DNA from: Escherichia coli
GTDB taxonomy: Bacteria > Pseudomonadota > Gammaproteobacteria > Enterobacterales > Enterobacteriaceae
Assembly: GCF_003334815.1 (NCBI RefSeq)
Contig: NZ_QOWO01000019.1
Reading direction: 5' to 3' (one strand)
DNA length: 64,000 bases
Made by a program: the position numbers. This document shows, one piece after another, positions 23,901 through 26,900 of the stretch (position 1 is the first letter of the stretch; each line of letters opens with the position of its first letter).

Positions 23901-26900
23901 CAAGGTATGACAAATTAATGGATGCGTTTCGTGGCGTTGGCTATAACGTCACCACGACAGATGAACTTCGTCATGCTTTAACCACCGGTATTCAGTCGCG
24001 CAAACCGACCATTATTAATGTGGTCATCGACCCTGCAGCAGGAACTGAAAGTGGCCATATTACCAAACTTAACCCAAAACAAGTCGCTGGTAATTAAATA
24101 CTGACATCGTCTCCTCTTGCCAACTCATTATGCGATGGTGAGGGGACCCTTATCGGAAATACTATTATGCTAACATTTTTTATTGGCGATTTATTGCCTA
24201 TTATCGTAATCATGCTGTTGGGTTATTTTAGCGGCAGACGAGAAACATTTTCAGAAGATCAAGCTCGGGCATTTAATAAACTGGTATTAAACTACGCGCT
24301 TCCTGCGGCTCTATTTGTATCTATTACTCGGGCAAACAGGGAAATGATTTTTGCGGACACTCGTCTGACCCTTGTATCACTTGTGGTTATTGTCGGATGT
24401 TTCTTTTTCTCCTGGTTCGGTTGCTACAAATTTTTTAAACGTACCCATGCAGAAGCAGCTGTATGTGCATTAATTGCAGGTTCACCTACCATTGGATTCC
24501 TGGGGTTTGCAGTTCTCGATCCTATTTATGGTGATTCCGTATCAACAGGTTTAGTGGTAGCAATTATTTCTATTATTGTTAACGCAATTACTATTCCTAT
24601 TGGTCTGTATTTGCTGAATCCTTCTTCAGGAGCGGATGGTAAGAAGAATAGTAATCTGAGCGCATTAATTTCTGCGGCAAAGGAGCCAGTAGTATGGGCA
24701 CCTGTTCTGGCAACGATCCTGGTGTTGGTTGGGGTAAAAATTCCGGCAGCATGGGACCCAACCTTTAATCTGATTGCGAAGGCTAACTCAGGGGTAGCGG
24801 TATTCGCTGCGGGGTTGACTCTGGCTGCACATAAATTCGAGTTCAGTGCCGAAATTGCTTATAACACCTTCCTGAAGCTGATTCTGATGCCACTGGCACT
24901 GCTTCTCGTTGGTATGGCATGTCATTTGAACAGCGAACATCTGCAGATGATGGTACTGGCAGGCGCATTACCGCCGGCATTCTCCGGAATCATTATTGCC
25001 AGCCGGTTTAATGTCTACACCCGTACTGGTACAGCGTCATTGGCTGTGAGCGTACTGGGCTTTGTCGTCACGGCTCCCTTGTGGATTTATGTCAGTCGAC
25101 TGGTTTCATAATTAATCATGTTATTGATTTTACATAAATGCCGAAGTGTCTTTTCACCTTCGGCTTTTTTCAAGGCATAAGCAAATGACAAATAATGAAA
25201 GCAAAGGGCCGTTTGAAGGCTTATTAGTTATCGATATGACACATGTCCTTAATGGACCTTTCGGAACTCAACTTCTTTGTAATATGGGCGCAAGGGTAAT
25301 TAAAGTTGAGCCGCCGGGTCATGGTGATGATACCCGCACATTTGGTCCCTATGTGGATGGACAGTCACTCTATTACAGTTTTATTAATCATGGCAAAGAG
25401 AGTGTGGTTCTTGATTTAAAGAATGATCACGATAAAAGTATATTTATAAATATGCTCAAACAAGCTGATGTATTAGCTGAGAATTTTCGCCCAGGTACAA
25501 TGGAAAAACTGGGGTTTTCATGGGAAACGCTTCAAGAAATCAACCCGCGCCTCATATATGCTTCATCGTCAGGTTTCGGACATACCGGTCCGCTAAAAGA
25601 TGCTCCTGCCTACGATACCATCATTCAGGCAATGAGCGGGATAATGATGGAAACAGGATATCCTGATGCTCCGCCAGTGCGCGTTGGTACATCTCTTGCG
25701 GATCTATGCGGCGGTGTCTATTTATTCAGCGGAATAGTGAGTGCACTTTATGGCCGCGAAAAGAGCCAGAGAGGGGCGCATGTCGATATAGCGATGTTTG
25801 ATGCCACGCTGAGTTTTCTGGAGCATGGTCTGATGGCATATATCGCAACTGGGAAGTCACCACAACGTCTGGGAAATCGCCATCCCTACATGGCACCTTT
25901 TGATGTTTTCAATACTCAGGATAAGCCGATTACGATTTGTTGTGGTAATGACAAGCTTTTTTCTGCGTTATGCCAGGCACTGGAGCTTACGGAACTGGTT
26001 AATGATCCCCGATTTAGCAGCAATATTTTACGCGTACAAAACCAGGCTATTCTTAAACAATATATTGAGCGGACGTTAAAAACGCAGGCAGCTGAAGTTT
26101 GGTTAGCCAGAATACATGAAGTTGGTGTACCCGTCGCGCCGTTATTAAGTGTGGCTGAGGCCATTAAATTGCCACAAACTCAGGCGAGAAATATGTTGAT
26201 TGAAGCCGGGGGAATAATGATGCCGGGTAATCCGATAAAAATCAGCGGCTGCGCGGACCCGCATGTTATGCCGGGAGCGGCAACGCTCGACCAGCATGGG
26301 GAACAAATTCGCCAGGAGTTCTCATCATAAATGTAAGATGTGCTGGTAAATAGCTCCCACATTTGAACATTGTGGGAGCCGCTATTTAGTCATTTTTCTG
26401 ACAGAAAACAGCAATCTCCTGGTCCAGCTCTGCAATGTGTTCTTTTACAGAGTTCAGCAACTGAAGAATTTCAGGCTTACTGTCATCTGAAACAGGTGTT
26501 ATTTCTAACTGATGGCTAATATTAATCAACTTTTGCAAATTCAGGATGTTAGCCGCACCGTGGATGCGATGAATACACTGATGGAAAGTTCTGTTATCGC
26601 CAGCTTCTAGTGCTTGAAACGCAGCGGGTAGATCTTTATGCGTTTCATGCTGGAAAGTCATGAGAATCTCCTGCATCAGTTGTAGATCGTTCGCCGTATT
26701 ATTTTTCAGGGCTTCGATATCAAGGTGGCGATACTGAGGTGCAATATGCGCAACTTGGTGTAACTGACTTAAATGTGTTTTCAGTACATCCAGGGTCAAC
26801 GGTTTGAACAAACATAAGTTCATGCCGCAACTTAACCCTTTTTCACGTTCGTTAGCCTGTGCGTTGGCTGTAAGCCCCCAGATGGGTAAGGAAGAATTTT

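What the first reader, a model, noticed from the sequence alone, without database searches (positions are those of the whole stretch)
25140..25170. Terminator-like hairpin placed 15 nt before the yfdE start codon
The structure gccgaag-(loop)-cttcggc followed by tttttt sits between yfdV and yfdE, with its T-tract ending just before the yfdE ribosome-binding region. This suggests either attenuation or partial termination that sets the stoichiometry of the second CoA-transferase relative to frc-oxc-yfdV, or a separate yfdE promoter.
Basis: seen in the sequence. Interest (0 to 1): 0.25.

Follow-up and report, generated by a model that had tools for sequence, protein, structure and literature searches.

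The report
Leaky terminator hairpin before yfdE
A small, conserved stem-loop followed by six T's sits between yfdV and yfdE in the E. coli oxalate operon and most likely stops most transcripts before the last gene; this is an ordinary, well-known way of turning one operon gene down.

Summary
GCCGAAG/CTTCGGC (25140-25146/25158-25164) plus two further pairs folds at about -12 kcal/mol (z -4.3). T6 follows directly (25165-25170) and ends 14 nt before the yfdE ATG (25185). The sequence is identical in K-12 MG1655. The core stem and T-tract were intact in every E. coli copy sampled.

Related hairpins in four other lineages align with it and show two compensatory pair changes. Most of 14 yfdV-yfdE junctions carry a hairpin 15-25 nt before the start codon, but only Escherichia and one close relative have a strong T-tract.

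No EvgA box or promoter-like site lies near yfdE. Published EvgS-activated data show yfdE induced about 6-fold less than yfdV (log2 3.57 versus 6.16). In a pH 5.8 ribosome-profiling study yfdE is missing from the top-20 list that holds the other four genes.

Best reading: a constitutive, leaky intrinsic terminator that lowers the accessory CoA-transferase YfdE relative to frc-oxc-yfdV. It may also protect the 3' end of the upstream transcript. I found no antiterminator, leader peptide or Rfam match, and no published 3'-end mapping under inducing conditions. This is an ordinary new member of a known kind, of low interest.

The parts
25140..25164 (+). Terminator-type stem-loop. The core stem is 25140-25146 paired with 25158-25164 (four G-C pairs at the base). 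Two more pairs join 25148-25149 to 25156-25157, U25147 is bulged, and the loop is 25150-25155.
   Evidence: -12.4 kcal/mol, z -4.28. It persists in longer contexts. Covariation is seen at 25140/25164 and 25144/25160.
25165..25170 (+). T6 tract directly abutting the stem; the expected site of transcript 3' ends (MG1655 2489183-2489188, minus strand).
   Evidence: It is T7 in L017 and T8 in L009.
25112..25139 (+). AU-rich 28-nt spacer between the yfdV stop codon and the hairpin. It is too short for a sensor domain and shows no competing antiterminator.
   Evidence: The common E. coli polymorphism A25114T lies here.
25171..25187 (+). yfdE translation-initiation region: Shine-Dalgarno AAGG at 25172-25175 and ATG at 25185-25187. 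It lies outside the hairpin.
   Evidence: the MG1655 yfdE annotation gives 381 aa.
24167..25111 (+). yfdV, the upstream gene whose transcript would end at the hairpin.
25185..26330 (+). yfdE (acetyl-CoA:oxalate CoA-transferase), the gene turned down by the element.
20830..20847 (+). Perfect EvgA box upstream of frc. It is the only evident source of EvgA-dependent transcription reaching yfdE.
   Evidence: 4 matches against 0.48 expected; none lies near yfdE.

Best explanation
The element is a constitutive, leaky intrinsic (Rho-independent) terminator inside the EvgA-activated frc-oxc-yfdV-yfdE transcription unit.

RNA polymerase starts at the frc promoter and transcribes the hairpin and its U6 tract just after yfdV. 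Most complexes release there and give a frc-oxc-yfdV mRNA with a hairpin-protected 3' end. A minority read through and give the only EvgA-dependent yfdE message. If the published fold-changes reflect termination alone, that minority is roughly one in six.

The hairpin ends 20 nt before the ATG, so it leaves the yfdE ribosome-binding site free. The result is a fixed step-down of the accessory 'priming' enzyme YfdE relative to the core enzymes and the transporter.

- **Shown here:** the anatomy, the conservation, the covariation, and the absence of a nearby promoter-like site or EvgA box.
- **Shown by others:** lower induction of yfdE.
- **Inferred:** that termination, rather than decay, causes the step-down; and its efficiency.
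For: **Anatomy**
- The stem has a G-C-rich base and abuts the T6 tract. It lies downstream of a stop codon on the coding strand.
- My version of a d'Aubenton-Carafa-type score (formula recalled from memory) gives +3. Two compact hairpin-plus-T6 sites found elsewhere in the window by the scan score +17 and +29. The T-poor hairpins of the other lineages score -20 to -98.

**Conservation in E. coli**
- An 86-nt query is 100% identical in 4441 of 5382 E. coli records.
- All 10 sampled one-mismatch variants leave the 7-bp core and the T-tract intact.

**Covariation**
- Hairpins from Escherichia L017, L009, L020 and L049 align with it. Of the cells, 95.9% are paired.
- Two of seven pairs change on both sides.

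**Source of transcription**
- EvgA boxes lie only at the yfdX, frc and evgA/emrK promoters.
- No promoter-like site lies upstream on the + strand.

**Published expression**
- In the evgS-constitutive S600I mutant, array log2 fold-changes are frc 8.37, oxc 6.59, yfdV 6.16 and yfdE 3.57 (PMC4283999 Table S4).
- At pH 5.8, Ribo-seq log2 fold-changes are yfdX 4.89, frc 4.78, yfdV 4.40 and oxc 4.28. yfdE is absent from the top 20, whose cut-off is 3.33 (PMC10746267).

**Biological fit**
- YfdE has been proposed to be an accessory priming enzyme (PMC3720670).
Against: - I could find no mapped 3' end. Adams et al. Term-seq lists none for frc, oxc, yfdV or yfdE, but the operon is not induced in those media.
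- Fold-changes are not absolute levels. A higher basal 'yfdE' signal would shrink its fold-change without any termination. One possible source is evgS read-through antisense to yfdE, since a Rho-termination region lies at 2488340 on the + strand.
- frc to oxc also drops by 1.8 log2 on the array, although that junction has no T-tract.
- Nine other lineages carry hairpins at the same place with poor T-tracts. The oxc-yfdV gap also holds a conserved hairpin without T's. The conserved property may therefore be the hairpin itself rather than termination.
- Two papers list yfdE as changed without frc, oxc or yfdV.
Confidence: 0.6

Rival explanations
1. The hairpin works mainly after transcription. 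It would be an intercistronic stability or processing element: a barrier to 3'-to-5' exonucleases for the frc-oxc-yfdV segment, or a protective 5' hairpin for yfdE after RNase E cuts the AU-rich spacer. The lower yfdE level would then come from differential decay, with little true termination.
For: - Hairpins of unrelated sequence occur at this junction in 12 of 14 lineages. Most have only 0-4 T's in the next 8 nt.
- The oxc-yfdV gap also holds a hairpin in 13 of 14 lineages, and the frc-oxc gap holds one in E. coli.
- In both junctions the hairpin ends 15-25 nt before the next start codon.
- Differential decay shaped by protective structures is documented for many E. coli operons (PMC5927463).
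Against: - The Escherichia and L009 versions have a perfect T6-T8 tract abutting a G-C-rich stem base. A decay barrier has no need for that.
- The two roles do not exclude each other.
- No decay or cleavage data exist for this operon; the supplements of PMC5927463 do not list it.
Confidence: 0.2
2. The hairpin is an efficient terminator that ends the frc-oxc-yfdV operon, and yfdE is made from its own promoter.
For: - Two transcriptome papers list yfdE as changed without frc, oxc or yfdV.
- In some distant bacteria yfdE is transcribed divergently from frc, so it can stand alone (L015 and L016).
Against: - There is no promoter-like site on the + strand between 24300 and the hairpin. The one at 25167-25196 would start transcription inside the coding sequence.
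- Only 14 nt separate the T-tract from the ATG.
- There is no EvgA box near yfdE, yet yfdE is induced about 12-fold in the evgS-constitutive mutant.
Confidence: 0.1
3. The hairpin is a regulated attenuator whose read-through responds to a signal, whether a metabolite, yfdV translation or an antiterminator protein.
For: Only the position: a terminator directly upstream of a gene whose need may vary with formyl-CoA availability (inference).
Against: - Only 28 nt lie upstream in the gap.
- No alternative pairing competes with the stem in 111- or 133-nt folds.
- There is no Rfam match even at E <= 1.
- The yfdV stop codon is 28 nt from the stem, too far for a terminating ribosome to block it.
Confidence: 0.03
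4. The hairpin is a chance inverted repeat next to a T-run, with no function.
For: Shuffled copies of the window give about 2 such sites per 64 kb.
Against: - The position is intergenic.
- The site is invariant in thousands of genomes.
- Compensatory changes occur in relatives.
- Hairpins recur at the same place in most lineages.
Confidence: 0.07

Closest known systems
Internal (intra-operon) leaky intrinsic terminators that set operon stoichiometry. From my own knowledge: the rpsU-dnaG-rpoD and rplKAJL-rpoBC junctions in E. coli. In the held literature: internal terminators controlling ABC-transporter stoichiometry in Clostridia (PMC9045158; listed, title and abstract only).
   Same: A G-C-rich hairpin and U-tract lie between two co-directional genes of one transcription unit. 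The downstream gene is expressed at a lower but co-regulated level.
   Different: Termination and read-through have not been measured here. The U-tract is short (6) and the stem modest (about -11 to -12 kcal/mol).
Protective intercistronic RNA structures that cause differential decay of operon segments (Dar and Sorek 2018, PMC5927463).
   Same: The structure is conserved at a gene boundary while its sequence turns over. Sibling hairpins lie at the other junctions of the same operon. The expression level changes across the boundary.
   Different: The structures in that paper are mostly inside coding regions. This one is intergenic and has a canonical U-tract. No half-life data exist for this operon.
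Regulated attenuators and riboswitch expression platforms.
   Same: A terminator hairpin lies just upstream of a start codon.
   Different: There is no sensor domain, no antiterminator, no leader peptide and no Rfam match.

Membership tests
Intrinsic (Rho-independent) terminator | A stable G-C-rich stem-loop on the transcribed strand. | tested here: met
   The stem has 7+2 bp with four G-C pairs at the base. It folds at -11.2 kcal/mol alone and -12.4 kcal/mol within the 37-nt piece (z -4.28).
Intrinsic (Rho-independent) terminator | A U-rich tract starting within 0-2 nt of the stem. | tested here: met
   T6 at 25165-25170 directly abuts C25164.
Intrinsic (Rho-independent) terminator | Transcript 3' ends mapped in the U-tract. 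| tested here: inconclusive
   The supplements of Adams et al. 2021 Term-seq list no 3' end for frc, oxc, yfdV or yfdE, but the operon is not induced in LB or M63. The other 3'-end data sets I looked for were not held.
Intrinsic (Rho-independent) terminator | A drop in downstream transcript level. | tested here: met
   This rests on the literature only. log2 fold-change is 6.16 for yfdV and 3.57 for yfdE. yfdE is absent from the pH 5.8 top-20 list. These are fold-changes, not absolute levels.
Regulated attenuator or riboswitch | An alternative antiterminator structure, a sensor domain or a leader peptide. | tested here: not met
   No competing fold appears. There is no Rfam match. The upstream spacer is only 28 nt.
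Repetitive extragenic hairpins (REP/BIME-type) | Many copies per genome. | tested here: not met
   The median is one place per E. coli genome for the 86-nt query.
Protective or processing intercistronic hairpin (differential decay) | A structure conserved at the gene boundary independently of its sequence. | tested here: met
   12 of 14 lineages have a significant hairpin ending 15-25 nt before the yfdE start codon.
Protective or processing intercistronic hairpin (differential decay) | Different half-lives of the flanking segments, or RNase cleavage sites. | not testable with these tools
   No decay data for this operon are in the held papers.
Independent yfdE transcription unit | A promoter or regulator site between yfdV and yfdE. 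| tested here: not met
   There is no sigma-70-like site upstream of the hairpin on the + strand and no EvgA box. Transcription-start data were not available.

The most novel reading that the evidence does not exclude
The oxalate operon of Enterobacterales is punctuated by a set of intercistronic hairpins at the oxc-yfdV and yfdV-yfdE junctions. Their sequences turn over freely, but each is held about 20 nt upstream of the next start codon. They would act as modular RNA-processing or stability signals that uncouple the membrane transporter from the cytosolic enzymes. In the Escherichia lineage one of them has been converted into a true terminator by gaining a U-tract.
Probability: 0.2. Interest if true: 0.35.

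Novelty: new member of a known kind. Interest (0 to 1): 0.18.

Why it matters
The gain is modest. The literature treats yfdXWUVE, or frc-oxc-yfdVE, as one uniformly co-expressed unit. An internal leaky terminator would explain why the accessory transferase YfdE responds more weakly to EvgS/EvgA than its neighbours do. It would also refine the operon annotation and any model of oxalate-dependent acid tolerance. No new principle is involved, because partial internal termination is a textbook way to tune expression within an operon.

Tried and rejected
**Database and pattern searches that found nothing**
- Rfam at E <= 1 over 18000-31000 gave only a chance Mu-gpT-DE hit inside evgS.
- The stock terminator scan missed the site because of its loop limit, so I wrote my own scan.
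- An EvgA-box search near yfdE found none.

**Searches for direct 3'-end or transcription-start data**
- Adams 2021 lists nothing for the operon.
- The supplements of Dar and Sorek NAR 2018 and Choe 2022 are not held.
- Ju 2019, Thomason 2015, Masuda and Church 2002 and Fontenot 2013 are not held.
- Schumacher 2023 Table S5 is not among the held supplements.
- A literature search for yfdE + yfdV + terminator returned 0 papers.

**Readings rejected**
- A REP-like repeat is rejected because the element is single-copy.
- Translation-coupled attenuation is rejected because the stop codon is 28 nt from the stem.
- Occlusion of the Shine-Dalgarno by AUGCC (25138-25142) pairing with GGCAU (25174-25178) is set aside as weak. 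It is only 5 bp and competes with the terminator stem.

**A limit on one number**
- The d'Aubenton-Carafa-type score uses a formula recalled from memory. I used it only for relative ranking.

Full report
**Context.** The window is E. coli. frc (21099-22349), oxc (22403-24097), yfdV (24167-25111) and yfdE (25185-26330) lie on the + strand, and evgS converges on the - strand. The 73-nt yfdV-yfdE gap is identical to K-12 MG1655. The coordinate map is MG1655 = 2514353 - window position, on the minus strand.

**Observation.**
- The arms are GCCGAAG (25140-25146) and CTTCGGC (25158-25164).
- T6 follows at 25165-25170.
- A 14-nt spacer follows, with an AAGG Shine-Dalgarno, and then the ATG at 25185.
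- RNAfold adds two pairs and a bulged U, which gives a 6-nt loop.
- The 37-nt piece folds at -12.4 kcal/mol (z -4.28, 0 of 200 shuffles as good).
- The hairpin persists in 73-, 111- and 133-nt contexts with no competing fold.
- The stock scan missed it because of its loop limit.
- My scan for compact hairpins of -10 kcal/mol or better abutting at least six T's gives 6 sites in the window, against 2.0 +/- 1.1 in shuffles. This is the only one on the + strand.

**Conservation within E. coli.**
- An 86-nt query spanning the gap matches 5382 records, with a median of one place per genome. Of these, 4441 are 100% identical and 941 have one mismatch.
- The six diverse strains aligned first were identical across the gap.
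- Ten sampled one-mismatch variants carry A25114T (6), C25176T (2), the loop change C25150A (1) or T25149C in the top extra pair (1).
- None touches the 7-bp core or the T-tract.

**Relatives.** YfdE homologues were fetched from species-representative genomes and metagenome assemblies. They give 14 non-redundant yfdV-yfdE junctions.
- Twelve of the 14 hold a hairpin that beats dinucleotide shuffles (z -1.8 to -4.6).
- These hairpins end 15-25 nt before the yfdE start codon. Their distance from the yfdV stop codon varies from 15 to 99 nt.
- Hairpins from Escherichia L017, L009 (labelled Yersinia vastinensis; YfdE 90% identical), L020 and L049 align with the E. coli one. Of the cells, 95.9% are paired.
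- Two of seven pairs change on both sides. G-C becomes A-U at 25140/25164, and A-U becomes G-C at 25144/25160.
- Strong T-tracts occur only in E. coli (T6), L017 (T7) and L009 (T8). The other lineages have 0-4 T's in the 8 nt after the stem.
- The oxc-yfdV gap also holds a hairpin in 13 of 14 lineages. In E. coli it is at 24109-24147 and has no T-tract.
- The frc-oxc gap holds one at 22357-22373 in E. coli.

Intercistronic hairpins are therefore a general trait of this operon. Terminator anatomy is specific to the Escherichia clade.

**Source of yfdE transcription.**
- The EvgA box TTCYTACANNTGTARGAA (consensus recalled from memory) matches four times, against 0.48 expected.
- The matches lie upstream of yfdX (19798, 19836), upstream of frc (20830, a perfect match) and in the evgA/emrK region (30823). 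None is near yfdE.
- No sigma-70-like site lies on the + strand upstream of the hairpin. The nearest one (25167-25196) would start transcription inside the coding sequence.

**Published expression.**
- In an evgS-constitutive S600I mutant, array log2 fold-changes are frc 8.37, yfdX 6.97, oxc 6.59, yfdV 6.16 and yfdE 3.57 (PMC4283999 Table S4). That is a 2.6-log2 step at this junction, against 0.43 at oxc/yfdV.
- At pH 5.8, Ribo-seq log2 fold-changes are yfdX 4.89, frc 4.78, yfdV 4.40 and oxc 4.28. yfdE is not in the top 20, whose cut-off is 3.33 (PMC10746267).
- YfdE has been proposed as an accessory enzyme that primes oxalate catabolism (PMC3720670).

**Caveats.**
- Fold-changes depend on basal signal.
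- A Rho-termination region antisense to yfdE (2488340, + strand) shows that evgS transcription reads into yfdE.
- frc to oxc also drops by 1.8 log2 on the array.
- Two papers list yfdE as changed without its neighbours.
- Term-seq in LB and M63 lists no 3' end anywhere in the operon, which is not induced in those media.

**Mechanism.**
- The most likely mechanism (0.6) is a constitutive leaky intrinsic terminator. Most transcripts from the frc promoter end at the U-tract, and a minority read through to yfdE.
- The main rival (0.2) is that the hairpin acts chiefly through RNA stability or processing, as described for other E. coli operons (PMC5927463). The two roles can coexist.
- A separate yfdE promoter (0.1), a regulated attenuator (0.03) and chance (0.07) are less likely.

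**Comparison and novelty.** The element meets the sequence criteria of an intrinsic terminator. Mapped 3' ends are lacking. It fails the tests for a riboswitch or attenuator and for a repeated extragenic element. No held paper mentions a terminator here, and the MG1655 record annotates none. It is a new member of a well-known kind, and the interest is low.

Noticed in passing
window 24109-24147 (oxc-yfdV gap); also 22357-22373 (frc-oxc gap): Each of the other gene junctions of the operon also holds a hairpin. The oxc-yfdV hairpin has a C-rich 5' arm and a G-rich 3' arm and no T-tract. It recurs with unrelated sequences in 13 of 14 lineages.
   Followed up: partly
yfdV-yfdE and oxc-yfdV gaps of the window and of loci L009-L058: In both junctions the 3' end of the hairpin lies 15-25 nt before the next start codon. 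That is about the upstream edge of an initiating ribosome's footprint (the footprint figure is my own knowledge). The distance from the preceding stop codon is much more variable at yfdV-yfdE.
   Followed up: partly
window 25170/25171; L008 3270-4061; L062 2567-3270: Two unrelated E. coli strains carry an insertion sequence exactly after the T-tract: IS1 in GTEN_23, with CTTTTTTC duplicated, and IS200C in ETEC1701. Both separate the hairpin from the yfdE ribosome-binding site.
   Followed up: partly
L003 (E. coli O157:H7 SS17), yfdE: yfdE is annotated as a frameshifted pseudogene in this O157:H7 genome. The upstream genes and the hairpin are intact.
   Followed up: no
window 26353-26379: A 9-bp G-C-rich hairpin sits between the convergent yfdE and evgS genes, with only weak T-tails on either strand. 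Published data place a Rho-termination region antisense inside yfdE (MG1655 2488340, + strand), so evgS transcription seems to read through this hairpin.
   Followed up: partly
window 25146-25184: An in-frame GTG inside the hairpin gives a 394-aa ORF. Gene callers give several metagenomic homologues similarly over-long N-termini of 385-398 aa. The 381-aa start at 25185 matches the MG1655 annotation.
   Followed up: no
window 25138-25142 and 25174-25178: AUGCC just before and inside the 5' arm is complementary to GGCAU, which overlaps the yfdE Shine-Dalgarno. UGCC/GGCA is kept in L017 and L009. The pairing is weak and competes with the terminator stem in E. coli.
   Followed up: no
L009 / L046: A genome labelled Yersinia vastinensis carries an oxc-yfdV-yfdE block about 90% identical to that of E. 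coli. The closely related metagenomic contig L046 has an evgS-like kinase gene next to yfdE. This suggests horizontal transfer or mislabelling.
   Followed up: no
L011 1660-1730 (Providencia rustigianii): The gene order there is oxc-yfdV-frc-yfdE. A long AT-rich hairpin follows yfdV even though frc is the next gene, and the frc-yfdE gap has no hairpin.
   Followed up: no
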